DNA from: an uncultured Coprococcus sp.
GTDB taxonomy: Bacteria > Bacillota > Clostridia > Lachnospirales > Lachnospiraceae
Assembly (NCBI GenBank): GCA_947626675.1
Contig: CANQTC010000011.1
Coordinates: 7,535 to 71,534 of the forward strand
Length of the DNA stretch: 64,000 nucleotides
Direction of reading: 5' to 3'
Position numbers and translations under genes: made by a program. Shown in pieces: positions 3,965 through 51,809 of the stretch. The notes below the pieces were generated by a model. That model was given only the letters and a program-made list of their open reading frames with translations. It was not told the DNA's origin and ran no database searches. How positions within the stretch are numbered: the first letter of the stretch is position 1; each line of letters begins with the position of its first letter.

Positions 3965-6133
3965 ATGGCAGATATCAAAAGGTGGATTCCAATCGAGGAG
4001 GACGGAATTTACATTTTATTCGGCATTACGAATGAAAAACAGCTAAAACTGATGCATTTTTCATCACAGCCATATCAGTATGTGGATGAAAACGGAGAAT
4101 ATAAAACAGATGAAACAGGACAGTTTATTGAGGAAGGCTTTCAACTGGTACAGGTGAGTTTTTCAGGATATAACAGACCTTATGAGAAGCACGGAAACAA
4201 ACATATCGTGACAGCACCGGGATATATGCTTGCTTTTATCGATATGAAAGATGAATATAATGAGCTGGGACGAAAACTGACCATTACGCAGAAAGATGAA
4301 CGAACCGGCGCAAAGGTTATTTCTTATATGCAGTTTTATAAAGGAACTTCGACGATTCGTATGTATCATGATGTCATCAATGAAGGGGATACGGAGCAGA
4401 CGCTGGAATATATTTCTTCCTTTTATTATCTCGGAATAGAAAAAGAAGGAAAGGAAAGTTCTGATACAAAAATGAAACTGACATATGCCTGTCATGGCTG
4501 GCAGAAGGAGATGAACTTCAGAACCGTAACTTTTCCGGACATGGGACTGGGACAGACGCAGCCAACCGTATTGCAACGTACATCGTCTACATTTGAACTG
4601 ACGAATACAGGTAACTGGTCTACAAAACGGTATCTTCCGATGGGATATCTTGAAAATACTGAGGCGGGTACGGGACTTTACTGGCAGATAGAGCATAATG
4701 GCTCGTGGCATACGGAAATAAGTGACGAAAACAATCATTTTTATCTGGCATTAAGCGGTCCTACAGAGATACAGTCGCATTGGTTTCAGTGTTTGAAGCC
4801 CGGAGAACGATTTACTTCCGTACCTGTCGCTGTCGGGGTATCAGATGCAGATTTTGATAAAGCAATGGGGCAGCTTACAAAATATCGTCGTATGATTAGA
4901 AGACCAAATGCTGACAATGAAAATCTCCCTGTTATCTTTAATGATTATATGAATTGTCTGTTTGGCGCTCCGACGACAGAAAAAGAACTTCCGTTAATCG
5001 ACGCGGCGGCAGAAATCGGCTGTGAGTATTATGTAATCGACGCAGGCTGGTATGCGCCGGGAGAATGGTGGGACAGTGTAGGCGAATGGCAGCCCAGCAT
5101 AGAACGTTTCCCAAATGGAATAGAAGAAGTGACGGAATATATCAGAAAAAAGGGTATGGTTCCCGGACTGTGGCTGGAGCTTGAGGTAATGGGAATCAAT
5201 TGCGAGAAAGCCAAAAAAGCGCCTGATGACTGGTTCTTTGTGCGGCATGGCAAAAGGGTTTTCGACCGCAGCAGGTATCAGCTTGATTTCCGTAATCCGG
5301 AAGTTATAGCGCATGTTGATGAAGTAATTGACAGAGTTGTAAACAAATATGGTGTCGGATATATCAAGATGGATTATAATATAGAGCCGGGTATCGGAAC
5401 AGAACTTTATGCAGACAGTGTCGGACAAGGGATGTTAGAGCATGAACGTGCATATCTTGCGTGGCTTGATGGCATTTTTCAGAAATATCCGGGGCTTGTG
5501 ATTGAAAACTGCTCAAGCGGCGGACTTCGTACAGACTATGCAATGCTTTCGAGATACAGCATCCAGTCCACGTCCGACCAGGAGGATTACAGGAACTACG
5601 CAACGATAGCAGCAAATGCGGCGGCGGCGCTTACACCTGAACAGGCGGCAGTATGGTCATACCCAATGAAAAACGGAGATATGGAGGAAACCATCTATAA
5701 TATGGTAAATGCACTTCTTCTCCGTATTCACCAAAGCGGACATATAGTGGAGATATCGCCTTCCCGCAGAGAACTTGTGAAAGAAGGAATAGAATATTAT
5801 AAAAAAATCAGAAGTGATATCAGACAGGCTGTTCCTGCGTGGCCGCTTGGACTTGCCGGAAGTTTGGACACATGGCTTTCATCTGCGCTTCGGGTTAAAG
5901 AGAAAACATATCTTGCAGTCTGGAGACGTTATGGTGAGCAGGATACATGTAGCATACCGATTGATAAGCTTGTAAAATCAGATATTGACAATGAAAAAAT
6001 TCATATCAGTCTTGCCTATCCGGCAGAGAAACTGCATGAGAACGTGGATTATCAGCTGTCGGATGACAAAAAATATCTGAATGTGACTTTCAGACAGGTG
6101 GTTATGGCGAGAATATTTGAAATAACATATTGA
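3965..6133 (+). CDS. Alpha-galactosidase, GH36
   Basis: VIDAGW, PGLWLELE, YIKMDYN (nucleophile), ENCSSGGLR, QSTSD motifs; RBS before ATG 3965. Confidence 0.9.
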   Translation: MADIKRWIPIEEDGIYILFGITNEKQLKLMHFSSQPYQYVDENGEYKTDETGQFIEEGFQLVQVSFSGYNRPYEKHGNKHIVTAPGYMLAFIDMKDEYNELGRKLTITQKDERTGAKVISYMQFYKGTSTIRMYHDVINEGDTEQTLEYISSFYYLGIEKEGKESSDTKMKLTYACHGWQKEMNFRTVTFPDMGLGQTQPTVLQRTSSTFELTNTGNWSTKRYLPMGYLENTEAGTGLYWQIEHNGSWHTEISDENNHFYLALSGPTEIQSHWFQCLKPGERFTSVPVAVGVSDADFDKAMGQLTKYRRMIRRPNADNENLPVIFNDYMNCLFGAPTTEKELPLIDAAAEIGCEYYVIDAGWYAPGEWWDSVGEWQPSIERFPNGIEEVTEYIRKKGMVPGLWLELEVMGINCEKAKKAPDDWFFVRHGKRVFDRSRYQLDFRNPEVIAHVDEVIDRVVNKYGVGYIKMDYNIEPGIGTELYADSVGQGMLEHERAYLAWLDGIFQKYPGLVIENCSSGGLRTDYAMLSRYSIQSTSDQEDYRNYATIAANAAAALTPEQAAVWSYPMKNGDMEETIYNMVNALLLRIHQSGHIVEISPSRRELVKEGIEYYKKIRSDIRQAVPAWPLGLAGSLDTWLSSALRVKEKTYLAVWRRYGEQDTCSIPIDKLVKSDIDNEKIHISLAYPAEKLHENVDYQLSDDKKYLNVTFRQVVMARIFEITY

Positions 6134-44282: not shown

Positions 44283-44808
44283 TATGAATAAAGATTATAA
44301 ATATGTTCCATATAGTCCTGATGACGAAAATCTCAGGGGCTTGATACAAAATGGAAATATGTTTAACATGAAAAAAGGCATGTCTGGAATATTACTGCCG
44401 GATGAACCATATTCAGATATAGACGAAGCATGGCGTGATCTTAAGACAATAAAGGAAATGTATCCGGGAAGATTGAAAATGATTAGCGCTATGGTGGAGG
44501 AAGAATGTGATAAACTGGAATATGATGGAAGTCCGATGCTTGCAGAATATCCTGATAAAGAACAGATGCGGAAGATTGCCAGAGAGGTATATGAAAAGTT
44601 AGATATAAAAGATGATGTGGAATTTCCGTACGAAGAGATGAAAGAAGAGAATGATGATGTGGCAGCTTCATATAACCCGCCTCCATATGTGCCGCAGGGG
44701 CCGGGATGTGTGAACTGCATGATGAGAAATATTGTGGAACTTTTAGTGTGTAATGAGTTTTATTGCAGACGAGACAGATATAGGAGACGAAGAAGAAGGT
44801 TTTATTAG
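44283..44808 (+). CDS. Hypothetical protein with acidic core and Arg-rich C-terminus
   Basis: ORF with RBS before ATG 44283; CDKLEYDGSPM..EYPD core; ends RRDRYRRRRRRFY. Confidence 0.7.
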
Positions 44809-47402
44809 TGAAGAAAATTAGAAATGTACTGATTAGAGTGATAGTAATGATAATTGCTTTTATTGTTACTGTGCATTTTGTAAATAAATTTGAGAACAGA
44901 GGGTACAAAAATCTTGCAACCGAGATGGAAGAAGCAGAGCTGCCGACGGCATATGTGATGTATGAAGACAGTTATATCAATTGTATGCATGGATATACAG
45001 CGCCGATTGACATAACATTGTTAAGAGATAATATAACGCCAATTGATGAAAACAAAAATATTACGATAGTAGTGGATGATAATAAGGATTTTGGTAAAAA
45101 TTATGCTTATGAATTGCGGGCTATTGCAGGGGATTCTCTTGTAGAAAATGGCGAACTTGAAGCGGTGGAAGGTTCAGATGGAAATAAAAGGCTTGATGTT
45201 AATATTCGTATGAATATAGAGCCGGATATGGAATATATGCTTATCATTAAGATGACAGGAGTGAACGAGGAGCTTGTAAGATACTATACAAGAGTGGTGG
45301 TGAACGCAGATTATCATGCAGATGCTTTGCTGAAATTCGTAAATGAGTTTCATGCAGCGACTTACGATAAGGATGCTTACAAAGAAGAGTCGCTTGTGTA
45401 TTTATGCCAACAGGAATATTTAGATGGAAAGCAGGCGGTAGTTCCTGATTACGGACTGGGATATATCAATCTTGGCTCGTCATATGAAGCAATTATGTGG
45501 AATAGCCTTAATCCGATGACAATTACATCCATTATTCCGAGTATTAAAGAAATTGATGTCAATTATGCGGTTATAGAGCTTGATTATAAAATAGCCTCTA
45601 CAACAACAGAAGATGTAACAAGTTATTATGCCGTAAAGGAATTTTATCAGGTGTCATTTAATGAGGAAAAGGTGGCATTAATAAACTTTGACAGATATGT
45701 GGACGAATATTTCAGCAAGAATGATGTTGATACATTAAATAATGTATATGAAATAGGAATTGTATCAAATCCGGATATAGACTATAAGTATAGCACAGAT
45801 AATAAAAAACTGGCATTTGTCAGAAACGGTCAGCTTTGGATGTATGATTATAGTAAAAATCAGATTTCGCTGGTATATAGTTTTTGGATGGATGATTTTG
45901 AAAATGCCGCAAACACTTATGATAATTATGGTATCAACATCATATCAATGGATGACGAATCCAATATATGCTTTTCTGTATATGGATATATGAACAGAGG
46001 GGTACATGAAGGACAGCTTGGGATAGCGCTTTATGAGTTTCAGGCAGAAACACTGGAGCTTTCTGAACTGATTTTTGTAGAAAACGATATTCCATATGAG
46101 GCAATGAAAAGCCAGTTGTCTAAGCTGACTTATTATGATGGAAGCAGTTTTTATTTTATGTTAGGCGGAAAAGTAAATAAGATAGATATTGCAAACAGGC
46201 AGTTGTCATACCTTGTAGATGGAATATCTGCAAATAATATTTATGTGTCTAAGAACATGGAAGTTGTCGCATATGGTGTAAGCGACGTTCAGAAAGAAAA
46301 TGACAGGCTGACGCTTGTAAATCTGAAGACAGGAAAGAATTATGATATCAATGCGGCATCGGGCGAATGTCTGATTTGTTATGGATTTAAGGATTCCGAT
46401 ATGGTATATGGAACTTCCGCCATATCAGATGAGAATATATCCAAAAATCTAAAGACATTTAAGGATACAAGACTTTCGGACGATTTTTCAGATACAATAC
46501 CGGCAAAAGAGATTTATATTGTAGATGAAAATGGAAACCAGATAAAGGAATACAGGAAAGAGGGATATTATACAGCACAGCTTGATATAGAAACTGATTT
46601 GTTGTATCTTACAAGGTGTAAGAAGAGTGAAAATAGCTTTGATGCCGCTTCAGATGACTTTATTACATTTAAAGAGGATGAGAAAAATCCGGGCATAGCA
46701 ACTGCATTCAGAAGCTCCGGGGATGGCTTTACAAAGCTTTATTTTACTGTTCCGGAAGGAATATATCTCACATATATACCAAATCTGAATATAACGAAAA
46801 ATAAGGTGGAATCCGATACCGCAAGTATGGTAGTGTCTATACCAAATGACAATGCGAACTATATGGTTTATGATAATCATGGACTTTCGAGGATATTTGC
46901 TGTGGCTGGCGATGCCATTAACTATGCGATTGATATATCAGGTATTGTTATTTCAAAAAAAGGCGAGGTAATATATAGGAAGTCCGAAAGTCAGGAGTAT
47001 AATACGATTGCTTCGGCAATATTCCACCATAGTTCAAAAAGCGTGGAGCGCTCATTGCAGGATGCATTATATATGGTTTTGACATATCAGGGTGTAACCT
47101 TGTCATATGATGATTTGTCAGAGTATACAGATGCAGTAGAAGCGCTGAATGTTTATGGAATGTATGAAGGGATAGATATATCGGGTATCAGCTTAGAATT
47201 ATTAGTAGGTTATGTTGGAGAAGGGATTCCGGTGATTTGTCGTATCAGTGATGGAAGATATGTATTGGTAGTAAGTTATAATAGTGTCGATATCAGATAT
47301 TATGACCCTGTTATAGACGAAGAAGTGGTAAAGTCGCGTGATGAATTTGAAGCGCTGATGGAAGCCGGCGGAAACGTATCATACAGTTATGCGGCAAATT
47401 AA
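44808..47402 (+). CDS. Membrane-anchored extracellular protein, C-terminal C39-peptidase-like fold
   Basis: N-terminal TM; C-terminal YVGEGIPV..VLVVSYN..YYDP pattern. Confidence 0.65.
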   Translation: MKKIRNVLIRVIVMIIAFIVTVHFVNKFENRGYKNLATEMEEAELPTAYVMYEDSYINCMHGYTAPIDITLLRDNITPIDENKNITIVVDDNKDFGKNYAYELRAIAGDSLVENGELEAVEGSDGNKRLDVNIRMNIEPDMEYMLIIKMTGVNEELVRYYTRVVVNADYHADALLKFVNEFHAATYDKDAYKEESLVYLCQQEYLDGKQAVVPDYGLGYINLGSSYEAIMWNSLNPMTITSIIPSIKEIDVNYAVIELDYKIASTTTEDVTSYYAVKEFYQVSFNEEKVALINFDRYVDEYFSKNDVDTLNNVYEIGIVSNPDIDYKYSTDNKKLAFVRNGQLWMYDYSKNQISLVYSFWMDDFENAANTYDNYGINIISMDDESNICFSVYGYMNRGVHEGQLGIALYEFQAETLELSELIFVENDIPYEAMKSQLSKLTYYDGSSFYFMLGGKVNKIDIANRQLSYLVDGISANNIYVSKNMEVVAYGVSDVQKENDRLTLVNLKTGKNYDINAASGECLICYGFKDSDMVYGTSAISDENISKNLKTFKDTRLSDDFSDTIPAKEIYIVDENGNQIKEYRKEGYYTAQLDIETDLLYLTRCKKSENSFDAASDDFITFKEDEKNPGIATAFRSSGDGFTKLYFTVPEGIYLTYIPNLNITKNKVESDTASMVVSIPNDNANYMVYDNHGLSRIFAVAGDAINYAIDISGIVISKKGEVIYRKSESQEYNTIASAIFHHSSKSVERSLQDALYMVLTYQGVTLSYDDLSEYTDAVEALNVYGMYEGIDISGISLELLVGYVGEGIPVICRISDGRYVLVVSYNSVDIRYYDPVIDEEVVKSRDEFEALMEAGGNVSYSYAAN

Positions 47403-47484: not shown

Positions 47485-47528
47485 AAAAAGGCCCTGAATT
47501 ATATAAAATGTATAATTCAGGGCTTTTC
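47485..47528. terminator. Bidirectional terminator
   Basis: GCCCTGAATTATA/TATAATTCAGGGC with A and T flanks between convergent genes. Confidence 0.85.
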
Positions 47529-47543
47529 TTCGTTTATAAAATA

Positions 47544-47714
47544 TTATTCCTCTGATATAGTACCAACAGGGCAAGCACCAGCACATGAACCACATGAAAT
47601 GCACTGTGAACCGTCAATTACGAATACACCGCCATTATCACTGATAGCGCCAACAGGGCATGAACCTGCACATGAACCACATCCGATACATGAATCTCCA
47701 ATAACAAATGCCAT
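47544..47714 (-). CDS. 2[4Fe-4S] clostridial ferredoxin
   Basis: CIGCGSCAGSCP and CISCGSCAGACP; 56 aa; AAGGAGG RBS. Confidence 0.95.
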   Translation of the reverse strand: MAFVIGDSCIGCGSCAGSCPVGAISDNGGVFVIDGSQCISCGSCAGACPVGTISEE

Positions 47715-47802
47715 AGATATGTCCTCCTTCTGAGTAATATTAATCATAAATATATTTTAAAACAAAATGTGTCATATATCAAGTATTAATAAAAAATTTC
47801 AT

Positions 47803-48558
47803 CTATTTACCTAATTCTTCGCGGCGTTCTTTCATAGCGCCAAGAATAATTTCTTTTGCTTTAATCGCATCATCATTTGTAAGCGGTTTCGTATCTTTCA
47901 GTGGATAATCGATACCAAGCTTTTCATACTTTACAACACCCATATTGTGATAAGGAAGTACCTCGAGCTGCTTCACATTGTTAAGCTCAGCCATGAAGTA
48001 TCCCACACGTTTCAGATATTCAGGCTTGTATGTGATGTCAGGAACGATAACATGTCTGATACGAATGGCATTCCCTTTCTCGTCAGCATATCTTGCAAAG
48101 TCAAGTATATTGTCAAGCGGCTGTCTGGTAAGCTTTTTATGCTCATCCGGGTCAATATGCTTAATGTCAAGCATGATAAGGTCTGTAACCTTAAGAAGTC
48201 TGTCGTATTTTGCCAGAATATCAGGATTATTCCGTCTGAACATGATTCCTGATGTGTCAAGGCAGGTATGAATACCACGTTTCTTTGCAGCTTCAAACAG
48301 TTCTATCAGAAAGTCGATTTGCATCAGGGGTTCTCCGCCTGTAGCAGTAATACCGCCATTGGTATAAAAAGGTTTTAAAGATTCGTATTGTTCAAGCAGT
48401 TCATCTACGGTTTTTTCTTCTCCGCCTTTCATATCCCATGTATCGGGGTTGTGGCAATACATACATCTCATAGGACAGCCCTTGAAGAATACGACAAAGC
48501 GCATTCCCGGACCATCTACTGTACCGCAGGTTTCTATTGAATGAATGTGTCCTACCAT
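47803..48558 (-). CDS. pflA: Pyruvate formate-lyase activating enzyme (radical SAM)
   Basis: HSIETCGTVDGPG, GCPMRCMYCHNPDTW, TGGEP, LPYHNMG; RBS before ATG 48558. Confidence 0.96.
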   Translation of the reverse strand: MVGHIHSIETCGTVDGPGMRFVVFFKGCPMRCMYCHNPDTWDMKGGEEKTVDELLEQYESLKPFYTNGGITATGGEPLMQIDFLIELFEAAKKRGIHTCLDTSGIMFRRNNPDILAKYDRLLKVTDLIMLDIKHIDPDEHKKLTRQPLDNILDFARYADEKGNAIRIRHVIVPDITYKPEYLKRVGYFMAELNNVKQLEVLPYHNMGVVKYEKLGIDYPLKDTKPLTNDDAIKAKEIILGAMKERREELGK

Positions 48559-48580: not shown

Positions 48581-48612
48581 ATAAAGGCAAGGGCAAAAGC
48601 CCCTGCCTTTAT
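48581..48612 (-). terminator. Stem-loop between the radical-domain gene and pflA
   Basis: ATAAAGGCA.GGGC-AAAA-GCCC.TGCCTTTAT. Confidence 0.65.
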
Positions 48613-48640: not shown

Positions 48641-48883
48641 TTACATTGCTTCGTGGAATGTTCTTGAGATAACATCTGCCTGCTGTTCCGGTGTAAGCTT
48701 AATGAAGTTTACTGCATAACCGGAAACACGAATTGTAAGCTGTGGATAGTTTTCAGGATGCTTCTGAGCATCAAGTAAAGTATCACGGTTTAATACATTT
48801 ACATTGAGATGGTATCCGCCTTCTTCAACATAACCATCTAACATATTTACTAAATTATCTACCTGCTGTGTACTAGCTGCCAT
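48641..48883 (-). CDS. grcA: Stand-alone glycyl-radical domain of PFL (GrcA-like)
   Basis: [29 protein letters not shown]; own GGAGG RBS; 80 aa. Confidence 0.92.
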
Positions 48884-48897
48884 TATTCTAATCCTCC

Positions 48898-49113
48898 TTA
48901 ATCTTTATATAATTCTTCGTCCATTCCTTCCATCAAAGTGGGAACGCTGCATGCTAAATCCCCCTTTGCGCAGTCAAGACATCCTAAAGTTTCTTCGGTC
49001 TTCTGGCCTGCTGCAACGGTTTCATCAACGGAAACATTAACGTGACCATGACCGTTACCCATCATGTTATCTAACATCGCAACAATGTCATTTACCTGAT
49101 TTTTGTCTGCCAT
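48898..49113 (-). CDS. 71-aa Cys-containing paralog of the radical-domain N-terminus
   Basis: Own GGAGG RBS and stop; 11/24 ungapped identity to the neighbouring GrcA-like N-terminus; tail [12 protein letters not shown]; no RVSGY. Confidence 0.8.
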
Positions 49114-49139
49114 AATAAACCTCCAAATATAATAAACAA

Positions 49140-51185
49140 TTATTTGCTTAAGTCGATATCGATATCTCCAACAAATACCTGATCTTCCTTACCAAGAGCG
49201 CCTGGAATGATAGAGAATGTATTTGAAATACCATCCTGTGCATCTCTGAAAGGAATCTTTGCTACTGATGCAAGAGAAGCTACTGCACCATGAGTATCTC
49301 TCTTGTGAAGTGGGTTTGCACCTGGAGCAAATGGAGCGCCATGCTTTCTACCACAAGGTGTATCACCTGTGTTCTTACCATATGTTACATTTGAAGTAAT
49401 TGTAAGAATAGACTGTGTAGGAACACCGTTACGGTATACATGGTTCTGTCTAAGCTTATTCATGAATGTTGTAACGATAGAAGTTGCAATCTCATCAACA
49501 CGGTCATCGTTATTACCATATTTAGGGAAGTCGCCTTCTGTTCTGTAGCTTACGATAATACCCTGCTCGTTACGTACTGGGTAAACCTTTGCATACTTGA
49601 TAGCTGATAATGAGTCAGCAACGATTGAAAGACCTGCAACACCTGTTGCGAAGTATCTCTTAACATCTCTGTCATGTAAAGCCATCTGAATTCTCTCATA
49701 TGCATACTTATCATGCATATAGTGAATGATATTCAATGCGCTTACATATACTCTTGCCTGCCATGTCATCATGTCATCGAATTTAGCCATTACATCATCA
49801 TAGTCAAGAGGGCCATCTCCTTCAACCGGACGGTACTTAGGACCTACCTGAACGCCTGTGCATTCATCAACACCACCGTTGATAGCGTAAAGAAGACATT
49901 TTGCAAGGTTTGCACGAGCTCCGAAGAACTGCATTTCCTTACCGATAACCATTGAAGATACGCAGCAAGCGATACCATAGTCATCACCATGTATTGGTCT
50001 CATCATATCATCATTTTCATACTGAATAGATGAAGACTTGATTGACATCTTAGCACAGAACTGCTTCCATCCGATAGGAAGTCTTGTTGACCAAAGAACA
50101 GTCATGTTTGGTTCTGGAGCTGTACCAAGATTGTTCAGTGTGTTCAGGAAACGGAATGAAGTCTTTGAAACTAATGTACGTCCGTCAACACCCATACCAC
50201 CAAGAGATTCTGTTACCCATACAGGGTCACCTGCAAATATCTGGTTGTACTCAGGTGTACGAGCAAACTTAACACAACGAAGTTTCATAACGAAGTGGTC
50301 AACAAATTCCTGAATCTGCTCTTCTGTAAATGTACCTGCAGCAAGGTCTCTTTCTGCATAGATATCAATAAATGTAGATGTACGGCCAAGTGACATTGCA
50401 GCACCGTTCTGCTCTTTAACTGCACCGAGGTAACCAAAGTATAACCACTGGATAGCTTCCTGTACATTTGTAGCCGGTTTGGAAATATCAAATCCGTAGA
50501 ATGAAGCCATCTTTGTTAATTCCTTAAGAGCCTTAATCTGCTCTGAGATTTCTTCTTTACCGCGAATAACATCATCGGTATATACTCTTCCGAATGATTC
50601 CTTCTGCTCAAGCTTATCCTCAATCAGTCTGTCTGTACCATAAAGAGCAACTCTTCTGTAGTCACCGATGATACGACCACGACCATATGCATCAGGAAGA
50701 CCTGTGATAATGTGGTTTGTACGACATTTTCTGATTTCAGCATCATAAACATCAAACACACCTTCGTTATGAGTCTTTCTATGCTTTGAGAAGAAATCAA
50801 CTACTTCAGGGTCCATGCTGTATCCGTTATCTTCACAGGCTTTCATAGCCATACGGAGACCGCCATATACATTCATACCTCTCTTGAAAGGAGCATCTGT
50901 CTGGAATCCGACGATTGTTTCCTTATTCTTATCAAGGTAGCCTGCACCATGTGAAGTAAGAGTTGATACAATCTTTGTATCCATATCAAGCACACCGCCT
51001 GCTTCTCTTTCCTTCTTTGTTAAGTCCATAACCTGTGCCCATAAATCTTTTGTATTCTGTGTAGGACCTGCTAAGAAGCTGTCATCACCCTCATAAGGTG
51101 TGTAGTTATTCTGAATGAAGTCACGAACATCGATAAACTTCTTCCATTTGCTGCCTGCGAAACCATTCCATGCTGTTGTTTCCAT
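49140..51185 (-). CDS. pflB: Pyruvate formate-lyase catalytic chain lacking the glycyl-radical domain
   Basis: DVRDFIQNNYTPYEGD, TGLPDAYGRGRIIGDYRR, active-site IACCVS, SILTITSNV, DGISNTFSIIP, then stop after 681 aa. Confidence 0.95.
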   Translation of the reverse strand: METTAWNGFAGSKWKKFIDVRDFIQNNYTPYEGDDSFLAGPTQNTKDLWAQVMDLTKKEREAGGVLDMDTKIVSTLTSHGAGYLDKNKETIVGFQTDAPFKRGMNVYGGLRMAMKACEDNGYSMDPEVVDFFSKHRKTHNEGVFDVYDAEIRKCRTNHIITGLPDAYGRGRIIGDYRRVALYGTDRLIEDKLEQKESFGRVYTDDVIRGKEEISEQIKALKELTKMASFYGFDISKPATNVQEAIQWLYFGYLGAVKEQNGAAMSLGRTSTFIDIYAERDLAAGTFTEEQIQEFVDHFVMKLRCVKFARTPEYNQIFAGDPVWVTESLGGMGVDGRTLVSKTSFRFLNTLNNLGTAPEPNMTVLWSTRLPIGWKQFCAKMSIKSSSIQYENDDMMRPIHGDDYGIACCVSSMVIGKEMQFFGARANLAKCLLYAINGGVDECTGVQVGPKYRPVEGDGPLDYDDVMAKFDDMMTWQARVYVSALNIIHYMHDKYAYERIQMALHDRDVKRYFATGVAGLSIVADSLSAIKYAKVYPVRNEQGIIVSYRTEGDFPKYGNNDDRVDEIATSIVTTFMNKLRQNHVYRNGVPTQSILTITSNVTYGKNTGDTPCGRKHGAPFAPGANPLHKRDTHGAVASLASVAKIPFRDAQDGISNTFSIIPGALGKEDQVFVGDIDIDLSK

Positions 51186-51283: not shown

Positions 51284-51312
51284 ATTATAATTGGATATTG
51301 TATACACGTCAA
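51284..51312 (-). promoter_or_regulatory. Sigma-A promoter of the pfl operon
   Basis: TTGACG-N17-TATAAT on the minus strand. Confidence 0.75.
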
Positions 51313-51596: not shown

Positions 51597-51809
51597 ATGG
51601 CAAAGCAAATTAGCAAAGATATGCTTATTAACGATATTATAGAGGTTGATGCAGGAAATGCGGCAATCCTTATGGCAGAGGGAATGCATTGCATAGGATG
51701 TATGGCGGCAGCGGGCGAAACGCTCGAAGAAGCAGCAGGTGTTCATGGACTTGAAGCAGATGACCTGGTTGCAAAAATCAATGAGTACCTTGCAAAGAAG
51801 GAAGCTTAA
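51597..51809 (+). CDS. DUF1858 / hybrid-cluster-associated redox disulfide domain protein
   Basis: ISKDMLI..GMHCIGC..ETLEEA..VHG. Confidence 0.85.
   Translation: MAKQISKDMLINDIIEVDAGNAAILMAEGMHCIGCMAAAGETLEEAAGVHGLEADDLVAKINEYLAKKEA

What the first reader, a model, noticed from the sequence alone, without database searches (positions are those of the whole stretch)
48641..51185. Genetically split pyruvate formate-lyase with a replaceable radical subunit
Seen: the PFL ORF keeps the active-site Cys-Cys but ends at FSIIPGALGKEDQVFVGDIDIDLSK-stop. The missing part ([24 protein letters not shown]) is a separate 80-aa gene with its own RBS, 256 nt away, and pflA follows. Known: in canonical PflB these parts are one chain; O2 cleaves it at the radical Gly, and the spare-part protein GrcA/YfiD rescues it by replacing about this same segment. 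Inference: here the O2-labile part is permanently a small exchangeable subunit, so damage costs 80 aa instead of ~750. Split PFLs may already be noted in other taxa; I cannot check.
Basis: partly seen in the sequence, partly recalled or inferred. Interest (0 to 1): 0.8.

Follow-up and report, generated by a model that had tools for sequence, protein, structure and literature searches.

The report
Naturally split three-gene pyruvate formate-lyase
This gut Lachnospiraceae bacterium makes its central formate-producing fermentation enzyme from separate genes (a 681-residue catalytic body, an 80-residue piece carrying the oxygen-sensitive radical, and a conserved 71-residue look-alike between them); about 40% of sampled genera in the family share the design, databases catalogue it only in part, and I found no paper describing it.

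Summary
On the minus strand, a PFL body (51185..49140, 681 aa, Cys407-Cys408) stops inside the Pfam Gly_radical domain. The rest, with the radical glycine (RVSG55YAV), is a separate 80-aa gene (48883..48641), followed by pflA and a ferredoxin.

Its first half copies the docking end of the radical piece; its second half is an invariant Cys motif.

This is neither decay nor assembly error:
- The order body-MID-radical piece-PflA recurs in dozens of independent assemblies, including cultured isolates.
- All three genes are under purifying selection (dN/dS 0.05, 0.14, 0.06).
- No other PFL was found in this 80%-complete genome.

About 83 of 200 sampled Lachnospiraceae genera have the split. It was rare elsewhere in the phylum (3 of 400 sampled genomes). 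Fourteen genomes carry a second short copy; in five genomes checked, an unlinked copy sat alongside the split operon. This fits a replaceable subunit, but exchange after O2 damage is untested.

It is partly known. NCBI names the small protein GrcA3, and PDB entries 38la/38lb are radical-domain-less large chains; 38lb also has the Cys-bearing tail of the split forms that lack MID. This scan has noted the same system in at least 364 other genomes. I class it as a new variant of a known kind.

The parts
51284..51312 (-). promoter-like site TTGACG-17-TATAAT about 100 nt upstream of the PFL body
   Evidence: 11 of 12 matches; consensus match only, not tested
49140..51185 (-). PFL-N: 681-aa catalytic body of pyruvate formate-lyase, with Cys407-Cys408 and a conserved extra tail VF(A/V)GDIDIDLSK; it lacks the last barrel strand and the glycine loop
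   Evidence: TIGR01255 positions 1-667 of 744, 1061.8 bits; AF2 pLDDT 86; 2pfl TM 0.93, 61% id; tail conserved
48898..49113 (-). MID: 71-aa conserved protein. Residues ~5-29 are homologous to the helix and strand at the start of the radical subunit. Residues 44-65 carry an invariant [22 protein letters not shown] motif, and there is no radical glycine loop
   Evidence: BLASTP vs SML E 1e-5; profile cross-hits SML N-termini; dN/dS 0.14
48641..48883 (-). SML: 80-aa glycyl-radical subunit (NCBIfam GrcA3), equal to E. coli PflB 683-759, with the radical glycine Gly55 in RVSGYAV
   Evidence: NF038360 161.6 bits, cut-off 158; dN/dS 0.06; SD core in 72 of 72 loci
48592..48607 (-). weak hairpin plus T-rich tail between the radical subunit and pflA (possible attenuating terminator)
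   Evidence: pattern match only
47803..48558 (-). PflA: 251-aa radical-SAM PFL-activating enzyme (start at MVGHIHS, AGGAG upstream)
   Evidence: TIGR02493 289.7 bits, cut-off 231.75
47544..47747 (-). 67-aa 2x[4Fe-4S] ferredoxin, a candidate electron donor for PflA
   Evidence: a homologue lies within 5 kb in 48 of 61 related operon loci; the role is inferred
47491..47523 (-). strong terminator-like hairpin ending the gene row
   Evidence: 13-pair stem, T tail

Best explanation
This is a working pyruvate formate-lyase built from separate polypeptides. PFL-N supplies nine of the ten barrel strands and the Cys407/Cys408 catalytic pair. The 80-aa SML (GrcA3) docks non-covalently. It supplies a helix, the tenth strand (HLNVNV) and the finger loop whose Gly55 is converted to the glycyl radical by the adjacent PflA, probably with the downstream ferredoxin as reductant. 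SML is therefore an obligatory subunit here, not an emergency spare part. Because it is not tethered, an oxygen-cleaved SML can in principle leave and be replaced by a new 80-aa chain; some relatives keep an extra unlinked SML gene for this. The 71-aa MID copies SML's docking helix and strand but carries a Cys motif in place of the glycine loop. It most likely binds the same socket on PFL-N as a placeholder or regulator. Shown: gene anatomy, homology, conservation, selection and distribution. Inferred: assembly, activation, exchange and the role of MID.
For: - Domain split: it falls exactly within Pfam Gly_radical. Together the parts cover E. coli PflB 8-680 and 683-759.
- Catalytic residues: the Cys-Cys pair and many other residues are invariant in 63 relatives.
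- Fold: AF2 folds PFL-N as the PFL barrel (pLDDT 86.2, TM 0.93 to 2pfl).
- Sole PFL: it is the only PFL found in the genome; the other glycyl-radical genes are NrdD.
- Conserved operon: the order PFL-N, MID, SML, PflA recurs in most of the 80 loci, including cultured isolates.
- Translation signals: a Shine-Dalgarno core lies before SML in 72 of 72 loci.
- Selection: dN/dS is 0.049 (PFL-N), 0.136 (MID) and 0.061 (SML).
- Phylogeny: the split forms fall in one supported PFL clade (SH-aLRT 97).
- Distribution: ~83 of 200 genera in the family have the split.
- Extra copies: 14 genomes have a second short SML copy. Five of five genomes checked with an unlinked copy also have a split-type body.
- Experimental precedent: artificial tPFL(1-695) plus truncated YfiD is fully active once activated (PMC8683613).
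Against: - No biochemical, transcript or protein data were available for this organism.
- In E. coli the artificial split binds and activates poorly (PMC8683613), so assembly here is assumed rather than shown.
- AF2 gave no confident placement of the PFL-N tail (residues 657-681, pLDDT below 50) or of MID alone (pLDDT 62).
- The genome is only 79.6% complete, so a second, fused PFL could sit in the missing part; some relatives (G117, G118, G601) have both types.
- The repair-economy rationale has no direct support.
Confidence: 0.85

Rival explanations
1. The split enzyme works, but the reason for the split is control of activity rather than cheap repair. A free radical subunit can be made, activated, stored or withheld independently of the body. 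MID competes for the socket, and its cysteines sense redox state, so PFL is switched on only when conditions are safe.
For: MID shares SML's docking helix and strand and is under purifying selection. Every split form examined carries the Cys motif, either on MID or on the PFL-N tail. Seven unlinked SML copies sit beside a Crp/Fnr-type regulator.
Against: There is no evidence that MID binds PFL-N. Only one Cys of the motif is universal across the forms without MID, which argues against a fixed metal or disulfide site. This rival does not exclude repair; both could hold.
Confidence: 0.35
2. SML is only a GrcA-type spare part, as its database name says. The true enzyme is a fused PFL encoded elsewhere, and the truncated body is an inactive remnant.
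For: NCBI names the family 'autonomous glycyl radical cofactor GrcA3'. The genome is 79.6% complete. A few relatives have both a fused and a split PFL.
Against: No fused PFL was found in this genome. The body has dN/dS 0.049 and an intact active site. The gene pair is co-linear with PflA in dozens of genomes that are 95-100% complete.
Confidence: 0.05
3. The split is a sequencing or assembly error, a recent nonsense mutation, or is undone by recoding (frameshift, readthrough, protein splicing).
For: The source is a MAG; a single window cannot exclude errors by itself.
Against: The same break is found in hundreds of independent assemblies, isolates included. The three ORFs are in three frames, and the spacers vary from 0 to 690 nt between species. 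Each gene has its own ribosome-binding site. The ends are too short to be intein halves (13 and 8 residues).
Confidence: 0.02

Closest known systems
E. coli PflB with PflA (PDB 1H16/2PFL; NCBIfam TIGR01255)
   Same: Same enzyme family, fold and active-site Cys-Cys; the RVSGYAV glycine loop is the same; the activase is adjacent. The body is 61% identical and SML aligns to residues 683-759.
   Different: E. coli has one 759-aa chain. Here the chain is cut at about residue 681 into two genes, the body carries an extra conserved tail, and a third gene lies between them.
Spare-part proteins GrcA/YfiD of E. coli (PDB 6OWR; TIGR04365) and Y06I of phage T4
   Same: A small free-standing glycyl-radical domain that completes a PFL body lacking a working radical domain. 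SML residues 20-79 align to YfiD 67-126.
   Different: YfiD is 127 aa with a 60-residue disordered N-terminus and acts only after O2 has cleaved a full-length PFL. SML is 80 aa, includes the preceding helix, and its partner never has a radical domain of its own, so SML is obligatory.
NCBIfam NF038360 'rad_fix_GrcA3' (and the 80-aa GrcA2, NF008341)
   Same: SML is a member (161.6 bits, cut-off 158), and relatives in GenBank are labelled GrcA or GrcA3.
   Different: The label describes an autonomous cofactor. I could not read the curators' note, and I found no paper stating that the partner PFL is truncated or that a third gene exists.
PDB 38lb and 38la, 'Formate acetyltransferase' (released after 8 April 2026)
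   Same: These are the best sequence matches of the body (1105.8 and 1060.9 bits). Both chains end at or shortly after ALGK and have no radical domain. 38lb has a Cys-bearing tail (…GECDMCEMKELDDVS…) like the split forms that lack MID.
   Different: The SML search found no SML-like chain from these entries. I could find neither the organism nor a publication.
Artificial tPFL(1-695) plus truncated YfiD(61-127), Andorfer et al. 2021 (PMC8683613)
   Same: It shows that a PFL cut just before the last barrel strand and complemented in trans is catalytically as good as wild type once it carries the radical.
   Different: It is engineered, binds weakly and is poorly activated. The natural cut lies about 14 residues earlier, and the natural system adds a body tail and MID, which may compensate.
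Small accessory subunits of other glycyl radical enzymes (benzylsuccinate synthase beta/gamma, HPA decarboxylase gamma)
   Same: Small Cys-containing proteins encoded with the catalytic subunit, which modulate access to the radical domain; this is an analogy for MID.
   Different: Those subunits bind [4Fe-4S] clusters through four Cys and are unrelated in sequence. MID has three invariant Cys and is a paralogue of the radical subunit's N-terminus.

Membership tests
Pyruvate formate-lyase (formate C-acetyltransferase, TIGR01255 / Pfam PFL-like) | PFL-like ten-stranded barrel domain | tested here: met
   PF02901 E 2e-210; TIGR01255 1061.8 bits over a cut-off of 994.2; AF2 model TM 0.93 to 2pfl
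Pyruvate formate-lyase (formate C-acetyltransferase, TIGR01255 / Pfam PFL-like) | Adjacent catalytic cysteines (E. coli Cys418-Cys419) | tested here: met
   Cys407-Cys408 in ...GIACCVSS..., invariant in 63 relatives
Pyruvate formate-lyase (formate C-acetyltransferase, TIGR01255 / Pfam PFL-like) | C-terminal glycyl-radical domain (RVSGY) on the same chain | tested here: not met
   The body stops at Gly_radical profile position 51 of 106; the remainder is a separate 80-aa gene in another frame
Pyruvate formate-lyase (formate C-acetyltransferase, TIGR01255 / Pfam PFL-like) | Cognate radical-SAM activase encoded alongside | tested here: met
   TIGR02493 PFLA 289.7 bits, cut-off 231.75
Pyruvate formate-lyase (formate C-acetyltransferase, TIGR01255 / Pfam PFL-like) | Pyruvate + CoA -> acetyl-CoA + formate activity | not testable with these tools
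   Needs an enzyme assay
Autonomous glycyl radical cofactor, GrcA type (TIGR04365 / NF008341 / NF038360) | Small protein consisting of a glycyl-radical domain that scores above a family cut-off | tested here: met
   NF038360 GrcA3 161.6 bits over 158; below the cut-off for GrcA (101.2 vs 170) and GrcA2 (110.6 vs 145)
Autonomous glycyl radical cofactor, GrcA type (TIGR04365 / NF008341 / NF038360) | Acts as a spare part for a full-length PFL that has its own radical domain | tested here: not met
   No full-length PFL was found in the genome, and the adjacent partner lacks the domain. The genome is 79.6% complete
Autonomous glycyl radical cofactor, GrcA type (TIGR04365 / NF008341 / NF038360) | Long disordered N-terminal region (YfiD residues 1-60) needed for activation | tested here: not met
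   SML has only ~8 residues before the region that aligns to PflB 683
Split-intein / trans-spliced protein | Intein halves flanking the break | tested here: not met
   Only 13 residues after ALGKED.. on the body and 8 before the homologous start of SML; Pfam finds no intein domain
Fe-S accessory subunits of glycyl radical enzymes (BSS beta/gamma type), considered for MID | Four-cysteine cluster site and sequence relationship | tested here: inconclusive
   MID has three invariant Cys plus His24 and no Pfam or PDB hit. Only one Cys of the motif is kept in the forms without MID

The most novel reading that the evidence does not exclude
PFL in these bacteria is a three-component, gated enzyme. The radical-less MID (or, in other lineages, the equivalent Cys tail on the body) occupies or latches the socket for the radical subunit, and its conserved cysteine(s) respond to redox state. 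The cell can thereby hold the body in a protected, radical-free state and swap in activated 80-residue radical subunits on demand. Such a mode of regulation and repair is not described for any glycyl radical enzyme.
Probability: 0.25. Interest if true: 0.8.

Novelty: new variant of a known kind. Interest (0 to 1): 0.6.

Why it matters
PFL is described as the most widespread glycyl radical enzyme and a main route to formate and acetyl-CoA in gut and rumen fermenters (PMC13450708). The field treats it as a single chain, with YfiD and T4 Y06I as the only validated spare parts (PMC8683613, PMC13450708).

A naturally and permanently split form is present in roughly 40% of sampled Lachnospiraceae genera. 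It offers a ready-made system for open questions: how the radical domain leaves the barrel to meet the activase, how a radical domain is recognised in trans, and how anaerobes limit the cost of oxygen damage.

It also matters for annotation. The small gene is labelled as an accessory 'cofactor', the middle gene as 'hypothetical', and the body as a complete enzyme. Pathway reconstructions may therefore miss that all the parts are needed.

Tried and rejected
- **Pseudogene or assembly error:** rejected on conservation, dN/dS and ribosome-binding sites.
- **Readthrough, frameshift or intein:** rejected because the ORFs are in three frames, spacers vary between species, and the ends are too short.
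- **MID as a second radical carrier:** BLASTP can be slid so that invariant Gly51 meets the radical Gly. However, the aromatic residue and the C-terminal helix of the motif are missing, and the Gly is absent from the equivalent tail in L127. Rejected.
- **AF2 of MID alone:** uninformative (pLDDT 62, one helix). I did not run a fold search on it.
- **AF2 of PFL-N:** run to see whether its tail fills the missing strand. The tail came out disordered, so there is no answer.
- **Re-fusion of the split:** the free tree nests five fused PFLs inside the split clade. The AU test does not reject split monophyly (p 0.18), so this stays unresolved.
- **Literature:** ten full-text searches found no description of a natural split PFL, GrcA3 or the PDB entries. 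The last search was badly posed and wasted.
- **Not done:** PMC6754787 (YfiD NMR paper) was not held. I did not search for longer proteins that fuse MID to a PFL body.
Full report
**What is in the window**

On the minus strand there is one gene row:
- a promoter-like site (51312-51284);
- PFL-N (51185..49140, 681 aa);
- a 71-aa ORF that I call MID (49113..48898);
- an 80-aa ORF that I call SML (48883..48641);
- a weak hairpin;
- PflA (48558..47803, 251 aa);
- a 67-aa two-cluster ferredoxin (47747..47544);
- a strong terminator-like hairpin (47523-47491).

Each of the first four genes has its own GGAGG-type ribosome-binding site. PFL-N, MID and SML lie in three different reading frames.

Pfam puts PFL-like at PFL-N residues 19-603. 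Only the first half of Gly_radical (profile positions 1-51 of 106) falls at residues 619-669. SML carries the second half (positions 50-106), with RVSGYAV.

**Mapping to the known enzyme**

PFL-N residues 3-670 align to E. coli PflB 8-680, with the catalytic pair at Cys407-Cys408. SML residues 9-80 align to PflB 683-759, and residues 20-79 align to YfiD 67-126. The break is thus a surface linker near PflB residue 681.

SML contains a helix, the tenth barrel strand (HLNVNV), the glycine finger (Gly55) and the C-terminal helix. AF2 folds PFL-N confidently as the PFL barrel (pLDDT 86.2; best Foldseek match 2pfl, TM 0.93, 61% identity). Its last 25 residues are disordered in the model.

NCBIfam calls PFL-N formate C-acetyltransferase (TIGR01255, positions 1-667 of 744). 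It calls SML 'autonomous glycyl radical cofactor GrcA3' (NF038360, 161.6 bits against a cut-off of 158) and PflA the PFL activase.

**Is it real and functional?**

- The window's own genome (a MAG, 79.6% complete, 25 contigs) has only this one PFL-like gene. The two other Gly_radical genes are anaerobic ribonucleotide reductases.
- A scan of species-representative genomes gave more than 593 relatives of SML. The best 80 loci are all labelled Lachnospiraceae or close, and include cultured isolates (Lachnospiraceae bacterium 28-4, A4, 64-25; strains 1xD42-87, 1xD8-48).
- In nearly all loci with enough flank the order is PFL-N (about 679 aa), MID (66-77 aa), SML (79-82 aa), PflA.
- A Shine-Dalgarno core precedes SML in 72 of 72 loci. 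Spacers vary from 0 to 690 nt, which excludes any conserved recoding.
- Median pairwise dN/dS is 0.049 for PFL-N, 0.136 for MID and 0.061 for SML.
- A ferredoxin homologue lies within 5 kb in 48 of 61 operon loci.

Decay, assembly error, readthrough and protein splicing are therefore rejected.

**Distribution and history**

- In a sample of one genome from each of 200 other genera of the family, about 83 have a short-frame SML (80-150 aa open frame, 70-92% identity). Fourteen of these have two copies (my count from the table).
- A separate full-length MID is found in 56 of the 200.
- In a phylum-wide sample of 400 genomes, only three outside the family pass the GrcA3 cut-off with a short frame. 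They belong to two other families; everything else is a fused 740-820-aa PFL.
- The other species of the window's own genus has a fused PFL that is only 58% identical. The split type is thus a distinct PFL lineage with a patchy distribution.
- On a tree of the body (82 rows), all split forms plus five fused proteins form one clade (SH-aLRT 97). The five fused ones nest inside it. An AU test does not reject a tree with all split forms together (p 0.18), so one origin is likely and re-fusion is possible but unresolved.

**The tail and the third gene**

Split bodies that are followed by MID all end in a conserved extension, ALGKEDQVFAGD(I/L)(D/E)xDL(S/N)K, that canonical PFLs lack.

The four split loci without MID (L127-L130) instead carry a longer body tail, for example GDIDIDLSCENGACFSPTLFEGLDTDKE. 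This is recognisably the C-terminal motif of MID. The MID profile also hits positions 52-68 on the tail of a 719-aa body in another genome. One fused relative (L111) has a Cys-rich linker at the same place.

MID itself has these features:
- Invariant residues are M13 L14 D15 G23 H24 N26 G44 C45 D47 C48 A49 K50 G51 L53 C55 P58 T59 L60 G63 D65.
- Its first 30 residues are homologous to the start of SML (BLASTP E 1e-5; weak hit to GrcA3 positions 3-42; profile positions 1-33 cross-hit many SML genes).

My inference is that MID is a chimera of SML's docking helix and strand with the ancestral body-tail Cys motif. A tandem duplication across the body/SML junction could have produced it. MID can complete the barrel like SML but without a radical site. 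It would then act as a placeholder, competitor or latch. This is not shown: AF2 of MID alone gives only one helix (pLDDT 62).

**Evidence bearing on 'replaceable'**

Eighteen of the 80 loci hold an SML with no PFL-N, MID or PflA within 5 kb. In seven of them SML follows GroES, GroEL and a Crp/Fnr-family regulator. All five such genomes that I checked also have a split-type body elsewhere, so these are true extra copies of the radical subunit.

Published work shows that E. coli PFL(1-695) plus YfiD(61-127) is as active as wild type once it carries the radical, although binding and activation are poor (PMC8683613). The natural system cuts about 14 residues earlier and adds a helix, a body tail and MID, which may make up for this.

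Exchange after oxygen damage fits these facts, but neither exchange nor a saving in cost has been tested. An equally good reason for the split is regulation of activation.

**What is already known**

- Curators have a model for the small protein (GrcA3), and GenBank records name it GrcA or GrcA3. They name the body formate C-acetyltransferase and MID hypothetical.
- The PDB sequence file holds two entries, 38lb (739 aa) and 38la (687 aa), both titled 'Formate acetyltransferase'. They are the best matches of PFL-N and end without a radical domain. 38lb has a Cys-bearing tail like the split forms that lack MID.
- These two entries are absent from the Foldseek copy, which ends on 8 April 2026, so they are recent. 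The SML search found no SML-like chain from them.
- Ten literature searches, and reading a 2026 review of glycyl radical enzymes (PMC13450708) and the YfiD rescue paper (PMC8683613), found no description of a naturally split PFL. Both papers state that only YfiD and T4 Y06I are validated spare parts.
- This scan has noted the same system before: 395 notes in at least 364 genomes, with follow-ups that reached the same reading. Those are AI notes and not independent evidence.

**Verdict**

The system is a new variant of a known kind: PFL with a GrcA-type radical protein, here obligatory, plus a third component. It is partly catalogued in databases and apparently unpublished.

Noticed in passing
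L024, L068, L072, L075, L093 (also L045, L055), around position 5000 of each locus: Unlinked extra copies of the 80-aa radical subunit lie directly after a Crp/Fnr-family regulator (cNMP_binding + HTH_Crp_2), in most cases preceded by groES-groEL. This hints at stress- or redox-controlled expression of a spare subunit.
   Followed up: partly
PDB 38lb_A and 38la_A (no window coordinates): Two recent solved structures titled only 'Formate acetyltransferase' are PFL large chains without a radical domain. 38lb ends in a Cys-bearing tail (GECDMCEMKELDDVS...). I found no publication or organism for them.
   Followed up: partly
L111:200-2521 (+), genome G132: A fused 774-aa PFL of the split clade carries a Cys-rich linker (…VTCGCEEVTCAV…) exactly where other species have the break. 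It is either an intermediate or a re-fused form.
   Followed up: partly
G000:C11:75255-75578 (about 3.7 kb beyond the window's right end; L003) and G000:C2:225646-225960 (L001): The genome has two anaerobic ribonucleotide reductase (NrdD) genes, each with a glycyl-radical domain. One lies close to the PFL locus on the same contig.
   Followed up: partly
window 51597-51809 (+): A 70-aa DUF1858 protein is encoded divergently upstream of the PFL operon. A homologue lies within 5 kb in 24 of 61 related operon loci.
   Followed up: partly
G428:C22:46401-46604 (+): A 110-aa open frame matches the GrcA3 model at 79 bits in a genome of another family where the PFL-N query found nothing at E 1e-30. It may be a small glycyl-radical protein without a PFL partner.
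   Followed up: no
window 44808-47402 (+): An 864-aa ORF with an N-terminal hydrophobic segment lies next to the ferredoxin end of the operon. I did not examine it.
   Followed up: no
L054, L060, L081 around position 5000: Another recurring site for an unlinked radical-subunit gene is next to, and divergent from, the spoIIIA sporulation operon (Spore_III_AA/AB/AE).
   Followed up: no
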